From positions 5,984,001-6,048,000 of the forward strand of contig CM000152.2 in the NCBI GenBank assembly GCA_000004695.1: a stretch of DNA of 64,000 nt, read 5' to 3'. This stretch comes from Dictyostelium discoideum (taxonomy: Eukaryota). The translations under genes were made by a program, and so were the position numbers. This document shows positions 19,476 through 29,021 of the stretch, one piece after another (the first letter of the stretch is position 1; every line of letters begins with the position of its first letter). The notes beneath the pieces are model-generated. The model was not told where the DNA came from. It saw only the letters and a program-made list of their open reading frames with translations, and did no database searches.

Positions 19476-21040
<1,565 letters not shown>

Positions 21041-21173
21041 ATAAATCTATTTTTATTTAAAACTATTAATTAGTTTAGTTAAGATTTTTATTTACAATTT
21101 AATAATAATATTATTATTATTATTATTTTAATTTCTAAGAAATAGAGAAGGTGAAAAAAAAAAAAAAAAGGTT

Positions 21174-21638
21174 TTACATATAATGGTCATTATCAAAACC
21201 TGGTGGAGTAAAATCATCTCTATCTGGCATTCCTCTACCCCTACCACTTGGTGGAATTCCACCAGTTGGTGGACCAAATGGATCGAATCTAGCACCTGGA
21301 GGAACAGCACCTCTTGGTAAACGTTGTTCATAACCAGGTAAACCTGTACCATATGGATTATTTCCTCCACCATATGGATTATGAATATTGCCAAAACCTG
21401 GATGATCACGACCTACTTGACCACCTTGTCCTGGAAACACTCCAGGTCCTCTTGTTTGGCCTGGATAAAATGGTGGATTATGACCAAATACAGGGAATCC
21501 AGGTGGATAAAGATCAGGATCTTGATCACCACCACCATTAAACCCTCCTCTATATCTATTACTACCCCTTTGTGGATCACCAACTCTAAGAGGATCATCA
21601 TCTTCAAAATCACGTTGATTATTTGGTGGTCTTCTTTC

Positions 21639-21670
<32 letters not shown>

Positions 21671-22260
21671 GCTGTGGTTGTTGTTCTTGCATATTAGTTG
21701 GTATTCTAACTAAACCAGGAACTAATGGATTTATTATACTATATTCAAAAATTGAAATAAATTCTTTTAAATTTAATAATAAATTTTCAACATCCTTATA
21801 TTCTGTATTTTTAACTAATTTATCAGTACTATTATTTTTATTATTATTTTATGAATGTTAAAAATAAAATATTAGTATTAATACTCAGTATTCATTCATG
21901 AATTATTATTATTATTATTATTTTATAAACTTACTCAACATCTAGTGTATGGATTTTATCATTTTTATCTTTTATCATTGCATTTACTAATAAGAGATTA
22001 CCCATTCTTAAACATTTGAAATGAAAAGTTTTACCAGGTGCCAAATGATTAATTAAATCTAATGTATATGAATCTGCATTGGAATTCCAATTCGTTGGTA
22101 CAACTTTATCATTTGTTTCTTCTCCTCCTTCTAATTTGAATTCGTGTTTATTTAAAATTAATGCTATTACTAATACTGCAACATCATATTTATCCCTAAT
22201 CCCAATTGAATTATCATTACCAATTAATGATTTTAAACGTTCTTTTATGAAATTTTCCAT
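21174..22260 (-). CDS. Proteasome inhibitor PI31 (PSMF1) homolog, about 326 aa. Exons 22260..21935 and 21828..21174.
   Basis: N-terminal FP-like domain ORF (21931..22260) plus a Pro/Gly-rich C-terminus with LPRGAVPPGARFDPFGPP, identical in core to human PI31 PPGAVPPGARFDPFGP, and terminal PPGFDNDHYM (cf. PPGYDDMYL). The exons join via GA|gtaagt (the donor overlaps an in-frame TAA) and an aataatag|T acceptor, in phase 2. Confidence 0.8.
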
Positions 22261-22653
22261 TATTTATTTGTTTATTATTATTATTATTTAATTTATTTAT
22301 TATGTGCGACTTCACAAAAACAAACATGTTTTAATTAAAAAAAAAAAAAATTAAAAAAAATTAAAAAAAATTAAAATAAAATAAAATAAAAAAAAAAATA
22401 AAAAAATTAAAATAAAATAATTGAATTAAATTTAATTTAAATAGCCAAATTAGGGAAAAAAAAAGATATTTATAATAAATGGCCTTCTCCCTTTATAAAA
22501 TTAGAATCTTTTCCTTTCCATTTTAATAAAAAAAAAAAAATAATAAAAAAAATAAAAAAAAATTACAACTAGGTTAACAAAATAAAAGTTAACTCGAACC
22601 ACAATGCTCAAAAATATCATCTTGGAACTGGTGTTTTCTTCCAATTTTAAAAC

Positions 22654-22723
22654 TGATTTTTAAAACTTCATTTTTCAATTCTAATGATTTAATTGAATTT
22701 GATGAAATTCTATTTAAAACATG
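22654..22723 (+). repeat. Direct-repeat copy 1 (about 70 bp) upstream of the TIP30-like gene. Its partner is at 23963..24028.
   Basis: ...aatgatttaattgaatttgatgaaattctatttaaaacatgg versus ...aatgattcaattttgaatttgatgaaaatgctatttaagacattg, about 75-80% identity. Confidence 0.6.
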
Positions 22724-23025
22724 GTAATTAATTTTTATTATTAATTTTAATTAATAAAAAAAAAAAAAAAAAAAATTTAAAATATCAGCTTTAAAACTTG
22801 TTTTTCAAGACCACACAATAATATAACATTATTTATCAAATTTGTAACATCTACCACTTCTAATTTTTTTTTTGCTTAACATAATGAAGATTGTAAAAAA
22901 CCAAAATTTTTTTTTTTTTTTTTTTTCCCACATATGAATTTGTTGTTCATTGTGGAAAAAATTTTACCTTTTTCGAAATTAAATCCAACCACCTTAACAA
23001 TTTACACCCAATTACATTTTGAGAG

Positions 23026-23077
<52 letters not shown>

Positions 23078-23140
23078 CAATTTTACAAGTTTTTTTTTTT
23101 TTTTTTTATCAAATTAATAATTATTAAAAAAAAAAAAAAA

Positions 23141-23848
23141 ATGAATGTAATTTGTATGGGATCAAGTGGGTTTGTTGGAAAAGAAGTTTTAAAACAATTA
23201 ATTAAAAATGAAAATATAAATAAAATAACATGTATTGTTAGAAAACCATTAACAGATATTGAAGATAATGTAAAAACTAATTTTATAATTCATAATGATT
23301 TTTTAAATTATTCAGAAGAATTTTTAAAAGAATTAGTTCAATCTCATCAAGCATGTATTTGGACAATTGGTGGTAGAAGAAGTCAATTTCCAACAAAAGA
23401 AGAATACGAAAAAGTTTCAATTGACTATACAATTACATTTGCAAATGGTATTGTAAATGCACTAAAATCAAAAACTCAACCACCAACTCCATTCACATTC
23501 ATTTATTGTAGTGGTATGGGTGCAAATGAAAAAGCAAATGAATCAATTATAAATAGAATTGAAATTGAAACTAGGGTTGTTAAAGGTAAAGTTGAAAGAT
23601 CATTAACAGAAATTCAAAATTCAAATTCAAATATTTTTAATCTTTTAATATTCAGACCAGGTGGTATTACTGAAAATCAAAATAATTTTATTCAATGGTT
23701 ATTATCATCTTTCACTGTTGATTTATCACATTTATCAAATGTAATAATTAATAAATTAATTAATTCAAATCAAAATACAACATCAACAACAACAACAACC
23801 ACAACAACAACAATATTTTTTAATAAAGATATTTATAATTATAAATAA
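23141..23848 (+). CDS. NAD(P)-binding Rossmann-fold oxidoreductase, HTATIP2/TIP30-like. 235 aa, single exon.
   Basis: N-terminal GSSGFVGKEVL dinucleotide-binding motif, and ...LLIFRPGGI resembling the TIP30 FRPGVL motif. Confidence 0.55.
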   Translation: MNVICMGSSGFVGKEVLKQLIKNENINKITCIVRKPLTDIEDNVKTNFIIHNDFLNYSEEFLKELVQSHQACIWTIGGRRSQFPTKEEYEKVSIDYTITFANGIVNALKSKTQPPTPFTFIYCSGMGANEKANESIINRIEIETRVVKGKVERSLTEIQNSNSNIFNLLIFRPGGITENQNNFIQWLLSSFTVDLSHLSNVIINKLINSNQNTTSTTTTTTTTTIFFNKDIYNYK

Positions 23849-23962
23849 TTAATTAAATCTGGAAAAAATAAAATTTTTTTTTGTTTTATAATGGGGTACC
23901 TCTTCTAAAAATTTTCTTTATTTTTTGAATTTTCAATTATTTATTTTTTAAAATTTAATATT

Positions 23963-24028
23963 GATTTTTCATATTTTAATATTAATGATTCAATTTTGAA
24001 TTTGATGAAAATGCTATTTAAGACATTG
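23963..24028 (+). repeat. Direct-repeat copy 2, partner of 22654..22723, downstream of the TIP30-like gene.
   Basis: See copy 1. Confidence 0.6.
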
Positions 24029-24279
24029 AAATTGTTTTTTATTATACATTTTAAATATTACTAAAATAAATTAGAATTTAAATTTTATTTTTATTTTTAT
24101 TTTTATAATAATAAAAATATATTACCAAATCTTAATAGAAATTAATAAATAAATTTTATTTTAAATATAAAAAAACAATTCTAATTTAATTTAAATATAA
24201 ATGAGTGTGCTATAGAATGTATCTAAAAATTAGGTTTAACACACACAAAAACGATAAAAATCTTTAACATTGTCGTAAG

Positions 24280-25450
24280 AACTCATTGATTGTAATGCTG
24301 TTACAATTTAAATACATGGTAACAATTTAAATACATAGTATCTTCAACTTCTTTATTTTGCGTTGAAATTCGGGTGGAATATCTTTAGATTGTTCATTTT
24401 TAAAGGGTGTTGGAAATGGTTGTAAGGAATCTTTTAATTCTTCGTTTTCTCTTTTAATAACAATAGTTTAAATTTCTTTGTCTGGTGATTTATTAAAATT
24501 TGATTCTTTTTCTTTTTCTTTTTCATTTTCTTCAATACCATCAGTTACATTTTTGAACATTTTATTTGCAGCCTTTTTTTGTTTTTAATGGGTTTAACTA
24601 AACCTAAATCAAAAAATATAAACTTTTCTTCATTGATATATTTATATTTGCCAACATGTCTTAATGATAAACTGAATGTAAATAACCTGATTCTGAAAAT
24701 TGTTTACAAGCTTCCATTAATCTTTAAAACCATCTTTGTTGTAATCATCAGAGGTTTATAAAATGGCATCAATAAACAAGGCTCACCATTAATTAAAACC
24801 TAGGTTTTGATTCCCCAAATATCAGACCAAGGTTTACTTTCTTCATTAATAACCGATATATCTTTGTTTTTGACGAAAAACTTGATTACAAATGCTTTGG
24901 CTTGTCTGTTAATTGCTCACCATGCTTTACCATCAATACCTGAACCTAAATCTTAAATTAAATAAATCTTTTTATTATTTTTCTCGTCTTCAATATCTTC
25001 AATTACATATGATATTGATACTGTATTATAATTATTATTATCTTTATTTTCATAATCAGTAAAACCAATTTTATATATTTTTCTGCTCAATCATATGGTC
25101 AACTCTTTGATTACATGCTCTTTCTCAAACATATGCACAGTGTATCCAATATTTTTGGTATAAGCTGCTACTTTGAAACTAGAATCGCATGGTTGGATGG
25201 TAACAAATTCGTTGAAACTGAAAAACTTGAAGAATTGTCAAGTATGCCCATATCAAAATTAAATTCACTATTCCTTAATCAAACTCAAGTTCCATTAAGA
25301 CTCAAACTGGATGATACAAATAAATCAGTTTCATGTCATCAATTCTGTAAAACCAATAATATTAGTAGATTCTTATTTGTATCACCAAAAATAACTTACA
25401 CTGATCGTACCTCAAATATCAATTTTTTTTATTTTATTTTTTCAAAAATT
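24280..25450 (-). pseudogene. Decayed coding relic. The segment is GC-richer and its long reading frames (mainly on the minus strand) are broken by stops and frameshifts. It may be a transposable-element or gene fragment.
   Basis: Minus-strand conceptual translation gives ...IYKIGFTDYENKDNNNYNTVSISYVIEDIEDEKNNKKIYLI*DLGSGIDGKAW*AINRQAKAFVIKFFVKNKDISVINEESKPWSDIWGIKT*VLINGEPCLLMPFYKPLMITTKM... It contains a 2x tandem 21-mer (aacaatttaaatacatRgta at 24298..24340). No family was confidently recognised. Confidence 0.3.
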
Positions 25451-25695
25451 TAAAAGAATTTTGCCAAATTAAGTAATTAATTTTTTATTTTTCAGTTAAA
25501 ATTAAAAAAGATAAGGAAAAATAAAAAAAATAAAAAATAAAATAATTTAAGAAGATAAACGAAAAAAAAAATAAATAAATAAATAAATAAAATAAATAAA
25601 TAAATATATAGATTTAAAAAAAAAAAAAAAAAAATTTTCAAAAGTGCCGAGGCAGCGTAGGTGTTAAGGTATTCATTTTATTATAGACTATTTAA

Positions 25696-25878
25696 GGTAT
25701 TACTGAAAATCAAAATAAATTAATTCAATGGTTTCTATCATCTTTCAGTATTGATTTATCACCATGTAATAATTGAACAATTAATTAATTCACAAAAAGT
25801 AAATCAAAAACAACAACAACAATGATATTTTTAATAAAAATATTTATAATTATAATTAATTAAATCTGGAAAAATAAA
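25696..25878 (+). repeat. Diverged duplicate (about 85% identity) of 23663..23874, that is the last 180 bp of the TIP30-like CDS plus its 3' flank. A gene-fragment copy 1.8 kb downstream of the parent.
   Basis: ggtattactgaaaatcaaaataa(a/t)tt(a/t)attcaatggtt...atttataattata(a)ataattaattaaatctggaaaaa(a)taaaa is present at both sites. Confidence 0.8.
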
Positions 25879-26034
25879 AAAAAAAAAAAAAAAAAATATT
25901 TATAACTTGAGGTCCCAAAAAATAAAAAAAAAATTAAAAATGAAATAAAATTAAAAATAAAAATAAAAGAAAATTGAAAAAAAAAAAAAAAAAAAAAACG
26001 AGTCACTTTTTTTTTTGTCGGTTTTTTCATTTTT

Positions 26035-26074
<40 letters not shown>

Positions 26075-26117
26075 TAATTATTATTGCAACATATATATTT
26101 TTTCAAAAAAAATAAAT

Positions 26118-28946
26118 ATGGTAAAAGCATATTTAAAGTTTGTTCAAGATAAAGTTTTTGGGTTAATATCAACTAGTAATTCTATATTGGATGGTAGTGG
26201 TAAATTAGCAATTACAGGATGTGGTGAACGTATAAGTATTTGGGATTTACGTAAACAAGTGTTAAATCAATCATTATATGAAGAAGATATAAAAGCAGAA
26301 GTTACAAATGTATGTTTAAGTAAGGATGGTGCATTATTAGCATCTGGCTATTCAGATGGGTCAATTAGAATTTGGTCAATGTCAGATTACCAATTACAAG
26401 CAGTTTTCAATGGACATAGAGGATCGGTTACAACAATGACATTCAATCGTTTAGGTAATATTTTAGTATCTGGAAGTAAAGATACAGAAGTGATAGTATG
26501 GGATATTATAACGGAATCAGGTCTATTCCGTTTACGTGGTCATCGTGATCAAATTACCTCTGTTAAATTATTAGAACGTTCAAATCATTTAATTACAAGT
26601 TCAAAAGATGGATTTATAAAGATTTGGGATACCGAAACTCAACATTGTATTCAAACAATTGTTGGACATCGTAATCCAATTTGGGGTATCGATGTGAACC
26701 CCGATGAAACTCGTTTATGTTCATGTACAAGTGATAATCAAATTCGTTTTTGGCGTATACCATCAAATGAAAGACAAAGAGAGGATGGAAGTGGTATTGA
26801 ACCAAAATTCATTGTAAATACACCAATCAATAGTGCAGTTATAATTCCAGATGAAATTAATGAAGATGGTAGTAAAAAAGAAAATAGTAACAATAGTAAT
26901 AATAATGATATAGATGATTTAGAAATTATTTCAGAAGAAGAATTTGCAAAATATTATGGTTCAATAACTGTTAAAGCAGAATCTGTATCTGGTGTACGTT
27001 TTGATCCAACAAATAAAATTTTAGCAGTCCAATCAACTGGTAAATTTGTTGATCTTTTTAAAATTACACATTATGATACAATGAAACTTGAAGAGATTTC
27101 AATAGTTGAAGAGATGAGACATCGTCAAACTATTAAAACCTCATCAAAGGTTAGATTCTTTTCATTTGGTAATGATATTAAACATTGGAATAAATTTGTA
27201 ATAACTTTAGCAGGTAATTCATTGGAAGCTTATGAAATTAAAGAAAAGGAACAAGGTGGTGGAGCATTTGAAGTTTCATCAACATTGGATCAAGCAGGTC
27301 ATCGTTCTGATATTCGTTCATTATCTTTATCATCAAATGATCAAATGTTGGTTTCAACAAGTTCAGAATCAGTTAAAGTTTGGAATATGAAATCATTATC
27401 ATGCATTCGTTCAATTGCATGTGATTATGGTTTGTGTACTGTATTTGCACCAGGTAATTTACATGTTATCGTTGGTACTAAAACTGGAACAATTGAAGTG
27501 TTTGAATTGGCATCGGCAGCACGTGTTGCCTCGATTAAAGCTCATGAAGGTTCAGTTTGGTCATTGGTTTTGACACCTGATCTTCGTGGTGTAACAAGTG
27601 GTGGTGCAGATAAGTTGGTTAAATTTTGGGATTTTGAATTAATTGCAAGTCAAGAGAATTCAAAACATAAGGTTCTCAATCTTTCACTCACAAAAACACT
27701 TAAAGTAGAATCCGATGTTTTAGCCTTGAAATATAGTGCCGATAATAAATTTTTAGCAGTTTCATTATTAGATAATACCGTTAAGATTTTCTACACCGAT
27801 ACAGTTAAATTCCATCTTTCATTATATGGTCATAAGTTACCAGTGATGTGTTTGGATATCAGTGACGATAGTACATTGATTATTACAGGTTCAGCCGATA
27901 AAAACATTAAAATCTGGGGTTTAGATTATGGTGATTGTCATAAATCATTCTTTGCTCATGACGATTCAATCATGCAAGTTTCATTCATACCATCAACTCA
28001 TCATTTCATATCAGCAAGTAAAGATAAACGTATAAAGTATTGGGATGCCGATAAATTTGAACATATTCAAACCATTGAAGCTCATCATGGTGAAGTTTGG
28101 TCACTTGCAATGGGATCGGTTGGTGATTTCTTTATAAGTGGTAGTCATGATCGTTCAATTAGAATTTTCAATCAAACTGAAACTCCAATTTTCGTTGAAT
28201 CAGATCGTCAAAGAGAAATGGAACAAACTTGGGAAGCCACATTAGAGGATGACACTCGTATGCGTACAAAAGAAATGTTGGAAGAGAATGCAGCAGCTGG
28301 TAAACAAACTCTCGAAACCATTATGGCTGGTGAAGATATTTTAGATGCAATTGAACTTTGCGTTCAAGAGAAATTCAAAATTGATGAATATGAAAAACTA
28401 TTGAAAACCACTAAAAATCAAGATGAAATCCCACTCTATCAACCAAACATTATCATGTTGGGTCTCTCTCCATCTGAATACCTTTGGAATAGAATCAACA
28501 GAATTAGACCAAGTGATTTAGAAGAAGCCCTTAGAGTATTACCCTTCTCTGTAATGAGAACACTTTTCGAATATTTCAATCTATGGGTCGATCAATCTGG
28601 AAAGAGTGTTGAATTCATTTTCAAATGTTCTTTCTTTTTAATTCAAACTCATCAAAATCAATTATCAGTTTCAACAGAATTCATACCAATTTTACAACAT
28701 TTAAATACATCAATTAAAAATCGTTTACAAAAAGAAAGATTCACATTAGGTTTTAATAGATCTGCATTATCATTTGTTAAACGTGAAATTGAAATTAATC
28801 AACAATATAAATTTTTTGATTCTGATTTATATTTAAATAAAAATAATAAAAATAATAAAGATAAAGATAGTAATAATAATAAGAAAGATAATAAGAAAGA
28901 TAATAAGAAAGATAATGAAAAATCATTAAAAAGAAATAGAAAATAA
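26118..28946 (+). CDS. WD-repeat protein 3 (WDR3/Utp12), a small-subunit processome component. 942 aa, single exon.
   Basis: MVKAYLKFVQDKVFGLISTSNSI...ISIWDLRKQ...GYSDGSIRIWSM...NGHRGSVTTMTFNRLGNILVSGSKDTEVIVWDIITESGLFRLRGHRDQITSVKLL...HCIQTIVGHRNPIWGIDVNPDE is collinear with human WDR3. The C-terminal Utp12 region is present. The ORF-track start at 25974 lies upstream in a poly-K/F low-complexity run; ATG 26118 is the likely start. Confidence 0.8.
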   Translation: MVKAYLKFVQDKVFGLISTSNSILDGSGKLAITGCGERISIWDLRKQVLNQSLYEEDIKAEVTNVCLSKDGALLASGYSDGSIRIWSMSDYQLQAVFNGHRGSVTTMTFNRLGNILVSGSKDTEVIVWDIITESGLFRLRGHRDQITSVKLLERSNHLITSSKDGFIKIWDTETQHCIQTIVGHRNPIWGIDVNPDETRLCSCTSDNQIRFWRIPSNERQREDGSGIEPKFIVNTPINSAVIIPDEINEDGSKKENSNNSNNNDIDDLEIISEEEFAKYYGSITVKAESVSGVRFDPTNKILAVQSTGKFVDLFKITHYDTMKLEEISIVEEMRHRQTIKTSSKVRFFSFGNDIKHWNKFVITLAGNSLEAYEIKEKEQGGGAFEVSSTLDQAGHRSDIRSLSLSSNDQMLVSTSSESVKVWNMKSLSCIRSIACDYGLCTVFAPGNLHVIVGTKTGTIEVFELASAARVASIKAHEGSVWSLVLTPDLRGVTSGGADKLVKFWDFELIASQENSKHKVLNLSLTKTLKVESDVLALKYSADNKFLAVSLLDNTVKIFYTDTVKFHLSLYGHKLPVMCLDISDDSTLIITGSADKNIKIWGLDYGDCHKSFFAHDDSIMQVSFIPSTHHFISASKDKRIKYWDADKFEHIQTIEAHHGEVWSLAMGSVGDFFISGSHDRSIRIFNQTETPIFVESDRQREMEQTWEATLEDDTRMRTKEMLEENAAAGKQTLETIMAGEDILDAIELCVQEKFKIDEYEKLLKTTKNQDEIPLYQPNIIMLGLSPSEYLWNRINRIRPSDLEEALRVLPFSVMRTLFEYFNLWVDQSGKSVEFIFKCSFFLIQTHQNQLSVSTEFIPILQHLNTSIKNRLQKERFTLGFNRSALSFVKREIEINQQYKFFDSDLYLNKNNKNNKDKDSNNNKKDNKKDNKKDNEKSLKRNRK

Positions 28947-29021
28947 AATAAAAATTAAAATTTATAATATATGTACATGTGATTAATTAATTCTTTTTTT
29001 TTTTTTTTTTTTTTTTATTAT

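What the first reader, a model, noticed from the sequence alone, without database searches (positions are those of the whole stretch)
22654..25878. Patchwork of segmental duplications and a decayed coding relic around the TIP30-like gene
The gene at 23141..23848 is flanked by about 70-bp direct repeats (22654..22723 and 23963..24028). Its last 180 bp plus 3' flank are duplicated 1.8 kb downstream (25696..25878). The interval between holds GC-richer sequence whose long frames are interrupted by stops (24280..25450), plus a tandem 21-mer. This looks like a repeat or transposon-mediated rearrangement, possibly a gene-fragment capture event or a nested insertion that later decayed.
Basis: seen in the sequence. 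Interest (0 to 1): 0.5.

Follow-up and report, generated by a model that had tools for sequence, protein, structure and literature searches.

The report
Decayed kinase-like gene copy between duplications
The odd patch is evolutionary debris: a truncated copy of a kinase-like (DUF5898) gene landed between two Dictyostelium genes, duplicated bits of its neighbour, and has since rotted differently in each lineage, so it is ordinary apart from a likely mis-annotated gene.

Summary
The repeats are real. The 3' 186 nt of the NAD(P)-binding gene DDB_G0282619 plus its flank (23663-23873) recur at 25696-25879. A ~150-nt upstream block (R1a, 22645-22794) recurs at 23946-24094 (R1b).

The "relic" is a pseudogene of the kinase-clan family DUF5898 (Pfam E = 2e-19). 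I found no transposon signature. Its C-terminal half lies on the minus strand (25077-24310) and carries 4 nonsense and 4 frameshift lesions. Its middle part (25078-25420) is inverted onto the plus strand, with ~130 bp and ~270 bp lost at the two junctions.

D. citrinum, D. firmibasis and D. dimigraforme have the two flanking genes directly adjacent. All four D. discoideum-complex lineages examined carry the insert with identical duplication edges. Each has decayed differently:
- AX4 has the inversion plus stops.
- D. cf. discoideum is collinear with one frameshift.
- Strains ACTFIR and ACTFIW have lost the C-terminal half.

So this was one DNA-level duplicative insertion in the stem of the complex. 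The interleaved R1a-c1-R1b-c2 order suggests a ~1.3-kb tandem duplication whose second copy was overwritten.

The annotated gene DDB_G0282621 is the inverted fragment and shows no coding constraint. Interest is low.

The parts
22645..22794 (+). R1a: upstream copy of the ~150-nt direct repeat. It lies in the divergent PI31 / DDB_G0282619 intergenic region.
   Evidence: Gapped alignment to 23946-24094, z = 7.8. The core gives 65 bits against a background of at most 44. Orthologous copies are at L003 7527-7611, L007 5633-5756 and L008 5641-5755. It is not detectable in the outgroups L004-L006.
23141..23848 (+). Intact gene DDB_G0282619: a 235-aa NAD(P)-binding Rossmann protein, weakly TIP30/HTATIP2-like.
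   Evidence: ORF. PF13460 E = 1.9e-6. Exact match to EAL66169.1/Q54S81. Orthologs at 78-92% identity in four other species. Divergence from D. cf. discoideum is 0.023, against about 0.07-0.12 for the neutral parts. PDB hits 2fmu and 2bka.
23663..23873 (+). c1: source copy of the duplicated segment, i.e. the last 186 nt of the CDS plus 3' flank. Weaker similarity spans 23637-23900.
   Evidence: blastn to 25696-25879 at 79%, E = 2e-45. Seven-sequence alignment. Tree with reciprocal c1 and c2 clades.
23946..24094 (+). R1b: second copy of the R1 repeat, about 45 nt after the end of c1.
   Evidence: Its proximal part is also present at L003 8795-8838, followed there by a ~150-bp deletion, so it predates the AX4 / D. 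cf. discoideum split.
24160..24340 (-). 3' flank and extreme 3' end of the inserted DUF5898 copy. Includes the AX4-specific 19-nt tandem duplication at 24303-24340.
   Evidence: Collinear with L003 8835-9020. TRF period 19 x 2.0 copies. L003 has a single unit.
24310..25077 (-). Segment B: C-terminal half of the DUF5898 pseudogene. The Pfam domain falls at about 24644-24952. It carries 4 nonsense mutations (24953-5, 24917-9, 24800-2, ~24470) and frameshifting deletions of 7, 4, 1 and 1 nt.
   Evidence: PF19250 70 bits against a cut-off of 28.9, model positions 1-109 of 109. tblastn with P0001 and P0002 in frames -1 and -3. Three-way alignment polarising the lesions.
25078..25420 (+). Segment A: middle part of the DUF5898 gene (aa 181-295 of DDB_G0282827), inverted relative to segment B and to all relatives. 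It holds the ORF 25115/25133-25453, annotated as DDB_G0282621.
   Evidence: tblastn frame +2, 65% identity, E = 3e-41. It is the reverse complement of L003 10024-10368 at 91%. L003 9895-10023 and 10369-10640 are missing at the junctions. Exact match of the ORF to XP_640159.1/Q54S80.
25421..25636 (.). AT-rich low-complexity spacer, (AAAT)n and poly-A. It replaces the N-terminal coding part that D. cf. discoideum still has.
   Evidence: Alignment to L003 10640-10790. TRF arrays 25497-25635.
25640..25670 (.). GC-richer block (GTGCCGAGGCAGCGTAGGTGTTAAGG) at the right edge of the insert. Its origin is unknown.
   Evidence: Conserved at the same place in L003, L007 and L008. There is no other copy in the window, in the paralog locus or in the outgroup loci. 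No tRNA or Rfam match.
25696..25879 (+). c2: decayed second copy of the DDB_G0282619 3' end. It is contiguous with the upstream region of the WD-repeat gene, whose ATG is at 26118.
   Evidence: D. citrinum L004 8523-9351 aligns contiguously to window 25696-26500. It has an 8-nt deletion relative to c1. c2 copies diverge at 0.07-0.10, against 0.015-0.035 for c1 copies.

Best explanation
The window matches Dictyostelium discoideum chromosome 3 at the AX4 genes DDB_G0282619 and DDB_G0282621. The patch is the scar of a DNA-level duplicative insertion, followed by neutral decay.

The event happened in the stem lineage of the D. discoideum species complex, after the split from D. citrinum. A 5'-truncated, promoterless copy of a DUF5898 (protein-kinase-clan) paralog was placed in reverse orientation in the ~270-bp spacer between the NAD(P)-binding gene and the WD-repeat gene. 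The donor probably lay on the same chromosome arm.

The insertion is tied to a duplication of local sequence. The repeats are interleaved as R1a - c1 - R1b - c2. That order is what a ~1.3-kb tandem duplication of the unit [R1 ... gene ... 3' flank] would leave if the interior of its second copy (promoter plus 5' two-thirds of the CDS) was replaced by the DUF5898 fragment. A single multi-template-switch repair or replication event (MMBIR/FoSTeS-like) would give the same product.

The copy was probably dead on arrival and decayed independently afterwards:
- In the AX4 lineage, a 343-bp internal inversion with ~130-bp and ~270-bp junction deletions, 4 nonsense mutations, 4 frameshift deletions and a 19-nt tandem duplication.
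- In D. cf. discoideum, a 2-nt frameshift, an (AAT)n expansion and a ~150-bp deletion in R1b.
- In strains ACTFIR and ACTFIW, deletion of the whole C-terminal half.

Shown: the homologies, the boundaries, the empty sites, the inversion and the lesions. Inferred: the order of steps, the donor and the molecular mechanism.
For: Repeats exceed chance.

The relic is DUF5898: Pfam 70 bits with full model coverage, and 57-69% aa identity to DDB_G0282827, ACTFIT_012022 and ACTFIW_005561/005589.

Empty site: in D. citrinum, D. firmibasis and D. dimigraforme the two genes are 155-273 bp apart. D. citrinum aligns contiguously across the junction.

Shared insert: D. cf. discoideum, ACTFIR and ACTFIW carry the insert with the same c1/c2 edges.

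The NJ tree puts the c1 and c2 copies in reciprocal clades, with D. citrinum and D. dimigraforme outside.

The inversion and junction deletions are resolved at base level. All paralogs and the three other lineages are collinear, so the AX4 state is derived.

Lesions are polarised with a paralog as outgroup.

Neutral decay: divergence is 0.06-0.12 in the insert, against 0.01-0.023 in the neighbouring genes.

5' truncation: the most intact copy starts at about aa 93 of DDB_G0282827 (about aa 128 of the 591-aa paralog) and abuts (AAAT)n.

The paralog locus L002 lies about 190 kb away on the same chromosome record.
Against: The true donor is not identified. The best paralog DNA identity is only 76-84%.

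R1 cannot be found in the outgroups, so which R1 copy is the original is unknown. Both could derive from a third source.

No remnant of the supposed second copy's promoter or 5' CDS survives. The tandem-duplication step therefore rests only on the interleaved repeat order.

The ~45-nt junction filler (23901-23945) and the GC-richer block at 25640-25670 have no identified source.

I could not search the whole genome or a Dictyostelium TE library.
Confidence: 0.8

Rival explanations
1. Transposon-mediated gene-fragment capture or nested TE insertion. A Dictyostelium element (TRE, DIRS, Skipper, DGLT, Tdd, DDT, thug) carried or caused the patchwork. The repeats would then be element termini or target-site duplications.
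For: Direct repeats flank both the gene and the insert. Two short pieces (23901-23945 and 25640-25670) have no identified source.
Against: The only protein-domain hit in six frames of 23850-25700 is DUF5898. There is no RT, RNase H, integrase or transposase hit. The relic's relatives are single-copy cellular genes. No tRNA gene lies within 20000-29000, and TRE elements target tRNA genes (the targeting rule is from my own knowledge). No terminal inverted repeats above the AT-rich background were listed. Nothing recurs elsewhere in the window. The repeats are copies of local unique sequence (the gene's 3' end and its upstream region), not element ends. At ~210-250 bp the duplication is far longer than a typical TSD.
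Confidence: 0.04
2. Processed pseudogene. An mRNA of a DUF5898 paralog was reverse-transcribed, for example by a TRE/LINE-like enzyme, and inserted. This would explain the 5' truncation.
For: The copy lacks the first ~90-125 codons and any promoter. 5' truncation is typical of LINE-mediated retrocopies (general knowledge).
Against: The flanking duplication is ~210-250 bp, and an unrelated local piece (R1b) sits between the gene's 3' end and the junction. There is no clear poly(A)/poly(T) tract abutting the copy's 3' end at 24095-24340. The paralogs appear intronless: the 'intron' in the L002 gene model merely bridges a frame change. The classic intron test is therefore uninformative.
Confidence: 0.07
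3. The DUF5898 gene and the c1/c2 duplication are ancestral, and the outgroups lost them by recombination between c1 and c2.
For: Recombination between 200-bp direct repeats would regenerate exactly the single-copy state seen in the outgroups (inference).
Against: This needs three independent precise losses, or one loss placed against the distance pattern. The single D. citrinum copy falls outside both the c1 and c2 clades, with D. dimigraforme. No DUF5898 remnant exists in the 155-273-bp spacers.
Confidence: 0.04
4. The inverted fragment is a newborn functional gene (DDB_G0282621), possibly spliced to the duplicated 3' end of DDB_G0282619 as in gene model ACTFIT_011952. On this view it would not be debris.
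For: Segment A has no stop or frameshift, while segment B has 8 disabling lesions in about twice the length; the Poisson probability of zero is about 0.02 (my estimate). All three indels against D. cf. discoideum are multiples of 3. Two annotations call a gene there. The GT...AG arithmetic fits a 117-aa chimera.
Against: The AX4-lineage substitution rate in segment A (10/336) equals that of the dead segment B (12/476). AX4-specific codon changes are 6 nonsynonymous to 2 synonymous. Differences are spread evenly over codon positions, 9/4/8. The same segment carries frameshifts in ACTFIW. The fragment has no Pfam domain. The splice donor GTACCT is poor. No paper in the library mentions the gene.
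Confidence: 0.05

Closest known systems
Duplicated (non-processed) pseudogenes arising from dispersed segmental duplication
   Same: It is a partial copy of a cellular gene placed at a new intergenic site. It lacks a promoter and 5' end, evolves at the neutral rate, and accumulates stops, frameshifts, deletions and an inversion.
   Different: It comes with an interleaved duplication of the target locus (R1 and the neighbour's 3' end). The decay can be followed in four independent lineages.
Complex rearrangements by replicative template switching (FoSTeS/MMBIR) or multi-template DSB repair, as described mainly in human and yeast genomes
   Same: It is a patchwork of short templated segments from nearby (1.2 kb upstream) and distant (probably ~190 kb) sources, in mixed orientation. 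The departure point is duplicated and there is short unassigned filler at the junctions.
   Different: The mechanism is inferred from an old product. At ~15% divergence, junction microhomology can no longer be read. A two-step history (tandem duplication, then replacement) fits equally well.
Gene-fragment capture by transposons (Pack-MULEs, Helitrons)
   Same: A gene fragment sits at an ectopic site between direct repeats.
   Different: There are no TIRs, no TE protein and no multi-copy termini. The repeats are copies of unique local sequence, and the duplication is ~210-250 bp rather than a short TSD.
DUF5898 (PF19250) proteins such as DDB_G0282827
   Same: The relic matches the full Pfam model and is 57-65% identical to DDB_G0282827 over both segments.
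   Different: It is not an intact member. It is 5'-truncated, internally inverted, and has 8 disabling lesions.

Membership tests
DUF5898 (Pfam PF19250, PKinase clan) | Sequence match to the family HMM above the gathering threshold | tested here: met
   70.0 bits against a cut-off of 28.9, model positions 1-109 of 109, on the conceptual minus-strand translation. 67.2 bits in the six-frame scan. Clan membership as listed in PMC9758233.
DUF5898 (Pfam PF19250, PKinase clan) | Intact, collinear open reading frame (a functional member) | tested here: not met
   There are 4 nonsense mutations and 4 frameshift deletions. There is an internal inversion with two junction deletions. The 5' ~90-125 codons are absent. 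It is therefore a pseudogene.
Transposable-element insertion or TE-mediated capture | TE-encoded protein domains (RT, RNase H, integrase, transposase) or their relics | tested here: not met
   Pfam scan of all six frames of 23850-25700 at E <= 0.1 returned only DUF5898.
Transposable-element insertion or TE-mediated capture | Element termini (TIR/LTR) and a short target-site duplication | tested here: not met
   The listed inverted repeats are poly-A/poly-T low complexity. The flanking direct repeats are ~150-nt and ~210-nt copies of unique local sequence.
Transposable-element insertion or TE-mediated capture | Multiple copies in the genome, or a match to a Dictyostelium repeat library | not testable with these tools
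   Only the 64-kb window and eight fetched loci could be searched. No extra copies were found there.
Processed pseudogene (retrocopy) | Loss of the parent's introns | tested here: inconclusive
   The paralogs appear intronless. The 68-nt 'intron' in the L002 model bridges a frame change.
Processed pseudogene (retrocopy) | 3' poly(A) tract directly followed by a short TSD | tested here: not met
   R1b and ~100 nt of mixed AT-rich sequence lie between the copy's 3' end and the junction. The duplication is ~210-250 bp. The AT-rich background makes this a weak test.
Lineage-specific insertion (derived state) | Empty orthologous site in outgroups and a filled site with identical edges in the ingroup | tested here: met
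   Empty in L004, L005 and L006. Filled with the same edges in the window, L001, L003, L007 and L008. Reciprocal c1 and c2 clades.
TIP30/HTATIP2-like SDR (the label given to the intact gene) | Significant similarity to TIP30 or the NAD_binding_10 family | tested here: inconclusive
   PF13460 scores 28.3 bits against a cut-off of 27.2, E = 1.9e-6. The best PDB hits are 2fmu (E = 0.0021) and 2bka (E = 0.011), over the N-terminal 100 residues only.

The most novel reading that the evidence does not exclude
The inversion created a new small gene. The stop-free 106-117-aa ORF on the inverted DUF5898 segment (DDB_G0282621 / ACTFIT_011952) may be spliced onto the duplicated tail of the neighbouring NAD(P)-binding gene. 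If it is expressed and retained in the AX4 lineage, it would be a dated, step-by-step example of gene birth from pseudogene debris.
Probability: 0.05. Interest if true: 0.5.

Novelty: new member of a known kind. Interest (0 to 1): 0.2.

Why it matters
Mostly housekeeping.
- An annotated D. discoideum 'protein-coding gene' (DDB_G0282621, UniProt Q54S80) is an inverted fragment of a DUF5898 pseudogene. It should probably be re-labelled.
- The odd repeats around DDB_G0282619 have no transposon involvement that I could detect.

The locus is also a tidy natural example of a dated duplicative insertion. The empty site, a near-intact copy and three different decay routes are all available in sequenced relatives. 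That could serve as a small case study of rearrangement and pseudogene decay in an extremely AT-rich genome. It opens no major question.

Tried and rejected
- An apparent link between R1 and the 3' flank of the paralog locus (L002 6514-6616) shrank to 24 nt plus low-complexity A/T when only the informative core was used. I dropped it.
- A very sensitive blastn without dust produced hundreds of AT-rich background hits. It served only as an empirical background.
- A fuzzy-regex search for the GC-richer block timed out. I replaced it with blastn-short, which found no source.
- Looking up the AX4 paralog DDB_G0282827 by exact protein failed. The ACTFIT paralog locus L002 was used instead, and its own gene model bridges a frame change.
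- tRNA and Rfam scans of the region gave nothing above threshold.
- Segment A was tested for coding constraint. None was found, so the 'new gene' reading was demoted.
- PDB sequence search with DDB_G0282827 gave no meaningful hit.
- The intron test for retroposition was uninformative.
- I did not use structure prediction, fold search or the representative-protein search, because the question was settled by comparative genomics.
Full report
IDENTITY OF THE WINDOW

The sequence is extremely AT-rich. Intergenic GC is 0.09-0.19 and coding GC is 0.25-0.45.

The 235-aa product of 23141-23848 is an exact match to D. discoideum AX4 DDB_G0282619 (Q54S81). The ORF 25133-25453 is an exact match to AX4 DDB_G0282621 (Q54S80).

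A second D. discoideum assembly (GCA_054883475.1, locus L001) is 99.7-99.8% identical over its 12.7-kb overlap with the window. It is identical between 23801 and 25976.

Neighbours are a PI31 proteasome-regulator gene on the minus strand (21174-22260; Pfam PI31_Prot_N and PI31_Prot_C) and a ~940-aa WD-repeat gene starting at 26118.

CHECKING THE OBSERVATION

Both repeat pairs are real.

- The 3'-end duplicate: 23663-23873 matches 25696-25879 at 79% over 211 columns (E = 2e-45). Its gapped local score is 17.7 SD above first-order-Markov shuffles.
- The '70-bp' flanking repeat is really about 150 nt: 22645-22794 (R1a) against 23946-24094 (R1b), z = 7.8. With the informative cores alone it scores 65 bits. 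The best unrelated hit anywhere in the window or in six related loci scores 41-44 bits.
- The 'tandem 21-mer' is a 19-nt unit x 2.0 copies at 24303-24340.

WHAT THE RELIC IS

The conceptual minus-strand translation matches Pfam DUF5898 (PF19250) over the entire model, at 70 bits against a gathering score of 28.9. A six-frame scan of 23850-25700 finds nothing else. DUF5898 is listed among the families of Pfam's protein-kinase clan (PMC9758233).

The nearest proteins are D. discoideum DUF5898 proteins: DDB_G0282827, ACTFIT_012022, ACTFIR_000936, ACTFIW_005561 and ACTFIW_005589. Identity is 57-69%.

tblastn shows the relic is two pieces in opposite orientation.

- Segment A: aa 181-295 of DDB_G0282827 map to 25079-25417 on the PLUS strand, with no stop or frameshift.
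- Segment B: the C-terminal half maps to 25072-24534 on the MINUS strand, in two frames and with stops.
- The two pieces abut head-to-head at about 25075-25079.

COMPARATIVE GENOMICS

I fetched the orthologous locus from seven other assemblies, using the NAD(P)-binding protein as anchor.

In D. citrinum (L004), D. firmibasis (L005) and D. dimigraforme (L006), the NAD(P)-binding gene is followed after 155-273 bp by the WD-repeat gene. D. citrinum L004 8523-9351 aligns as one contiguous HSP to window 25696-26500. So the outgroups have one copy of the 3' end and an empty site.

In D. cf. discoideum (L003), the same site holds a collinear minus-strand DUF5898 copy.

- It covers aa 93-485 of DDB_G0282827, with no stops and one 2-nt frameshift.
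- It is flanked by the same c1 and c2 copies. The edges are identical to the base: copy 2 begins at GGTATTACTG, preceded by the same GC-richer block, and copy 1 ends at AAATCTGGAAAAA.

Two further strains labelled D. discoideum but about 8% divergent here (ACTFIR, L007; ACTFIW, L008) also have R1a, c1, c2 and the right-hand block. They retain only the collinear N-terminal and middle part of the DUF5898 copy. The whole C-terminal half is deleted, with additional small deletions in L007.

An NJ tree of the ~200-nt duplicated segment places the four c1 copies and the four c2 copies in reciprocal clades. D. citrinum and D. dimigraforme fall outside. Distances are c1-c2 0.13-0.17, c2-c2 0.07-0.10 and c1-c1 0.015-0.035.

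There was therefore one duplication and insertion event in the stem of the D. discoideum complex, after the split from D. citrinum.

THE AX4-SPECIFIC INVERSION

Window 25078-25420 is the reverse complement of L003 10024-10368, at 91% identity. L003 9895-10023 (~130 bp, coding aa ~296-340) and L003 10369-10640 (~270 bp, the N-terminal coding part) have no counterpart in the window.

All paralogs and the other three lineages are collinear. The inversion with junction deletions is therefore derived in the AX4 lineage.

DECAY

I polarised the lesions using D. cf. discoideum and the paralog L002 as references.

AX4 segment B carries:
- nonsense mutations TCA>TAA (24953-5), TTA>TGA (24917-9), TTG>TAG (24800-2) and CAA>TAA (~24470);
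- frameshifting deletions of 7, 4, 1 and 1 nt;
- one in-frame 3-nt deletion.

D. cf. discoideum has its own 2-nt deletion, a run of about 50 AAT codons, and an 8-nt deletion. It has also lost ~150 bp of R1b.

Divergence between AX4 and D. cf. discoideum is 0.06-0.12 across the insert. It is 0.010-0.023 in the three neighbouring genes.

IS SEGMENT A (DDB_G0282621) A GENE?

Evidence for:
- It is stop-free, while segment B has 8 disabling lesions.
- Its three indels against D. cf. discoideum are all multiples of 3.
- One assembly's annotation splices it (25133-25406) to the c2 fragment (25697-25776), giving a 117-aa chimera, ACTFIT_011952.

Evidence against:
- Its AX4-lineage substitution rate (10/336) equals that of segment B (12/476).
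- AX4-specific codon changes are 6 nonsynonymous to 2 synonymous.
- Differences are spread 9/4/8 over codon positions.
- The same segment has frameshifts in ACTFIW.
- It has no Pfam domain.

I read the open frame as chance survival, and the annotation as a call on a pseudogene fragment.

HOW IT AROSE (INFERENCE)

The most intact copy begins at about aa 93 of DDB_G0282827, which is about aa 128 of the 591-aa ACTFIW_005561, and directly abuts (AAAT)n. The inserted piece was therefore 5'-truncated and promoterless, and probably dead on arrival.

A paralog locus (L002) lies ~190 kb away on the same chromosome record. DNA identity to it is only 76-84%, so the true donor is not established.

The repeats are interleaved as R1a - c1 - R1b - c2. 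A tandem duplication of a ~1.3-kb unit running from R1 to just past the gene's 3' flank gives exactly that order. The interior of the second copy would then have been replaced by the DUF5898 fragment. Alternatively, one repair or replication event with several template switches (3' end of the gene, then upstream R1, then the distant paralog in reverse, then back ~240 bp upstream of the departure point) would give the same product.

R1a-R1b identity (~77%) and c1-c2 identity (~79%) are similar, which is compatible with a single burst. With ~15% divergence at the junctions, microhomology cannot be read, so I cannot choose between the two models.

Two short pieces have no identified source: the filler at 23901-23945 and the GC-richer block at 25640-25670.

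RIVALS

- TE-mediated capture lacks every testable hallmark: no TE domains, no termini, no extra copies in the sequence held, no tRNA target.
- Retroposition would explain the 5' truncation. It does not explain the long duplication or R1b lying between the copy's 3' end and the junction. The intron test is uninformative because the paralogs look intronless.
- Ancestral presence with loss in the outgroups is contradicted by the tree and by parsimony.

VERDICT

This is an ordinary duplicated pseudogene with an unusually well-documented history, plus a probable mis-annotation of DDB_G0282621.

Noticed in passing
window 25133-25453 (and 25133-25406 + 25697-25776): AX4 annotates this ORF as the protein-coding gene DDB_G0282621 (Q54S80, 106 aa). 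A newer assembly models a 117-aa spliced chimera with the duplicated tail of DDB_G0282619 (ACTFIT_011952). Both sit on the inverted fragment of a DUF5898 pseudogene and show no coding constraint.
   Followed up: yes
L003 9735-9858 (D. cf. discoideum copy of the DUF5898 insert): A run of about 50 consecutive AAT (Asn) codons sits where AX4 and the paralogs have only a few (NKDNNNYN / NKDDD). This is a lineage-specific triplet expansion inside the near-intact copy.
   Followed up: partly
P0002 (DDB_G0282827) aa 149-200; P0015: Upstream of the kinase-clan DUF5898 domain, the intact paralogs carry a motif (D-ILIITHRGIPKGVIQLK). It gives a sub-threshold hit to HSDR_N_2, a PD-(D/E)xK nuclease-like domain (E = 0.028). 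A weak ABC1 atypical-kinase hit (E = 0.032) falls over the C-terminal part. This hints at a nuclease-like plus kinase-like architecture, but it is unverified.
   Followed up: partly
L002 5001-6316 (paralog ACTFIT_012022): The gene model uses a 68-nt 'intron' that merely bridges a frame change. The product lacks about 100 residues present in AX4 DDB_G0282827 and the ACTFIW paralogs. This paralog may itself be damaged in that strain, or the model is wrong.
   Followed up: partly
window 22560-22645: A GC-richer block (…GTTAACTCGAACCACAATGCTCAAAAATATCATCTTGGAACTGGTG…) lies in the divergent PI31 / DDB_G0282619 intergenic region, just left of R1a. It falls within a stretch that is ~90% conserved with D. 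cf. discoideum (22000-22647 = L003 6556-7213). It could be a 5' UTR or a regulatory element. I did not examine it.
   Followed up: no
L007 and L008 (strains ACTFIR, ACTFIW): These assemblies are labelled D. discoideum but differ from AX4 at this locus by about 8% in alignable DNA. That is as much as 'D. cf. discoideum' does, which suggests cryptic species-level divergence within the name.
   Followed up: no
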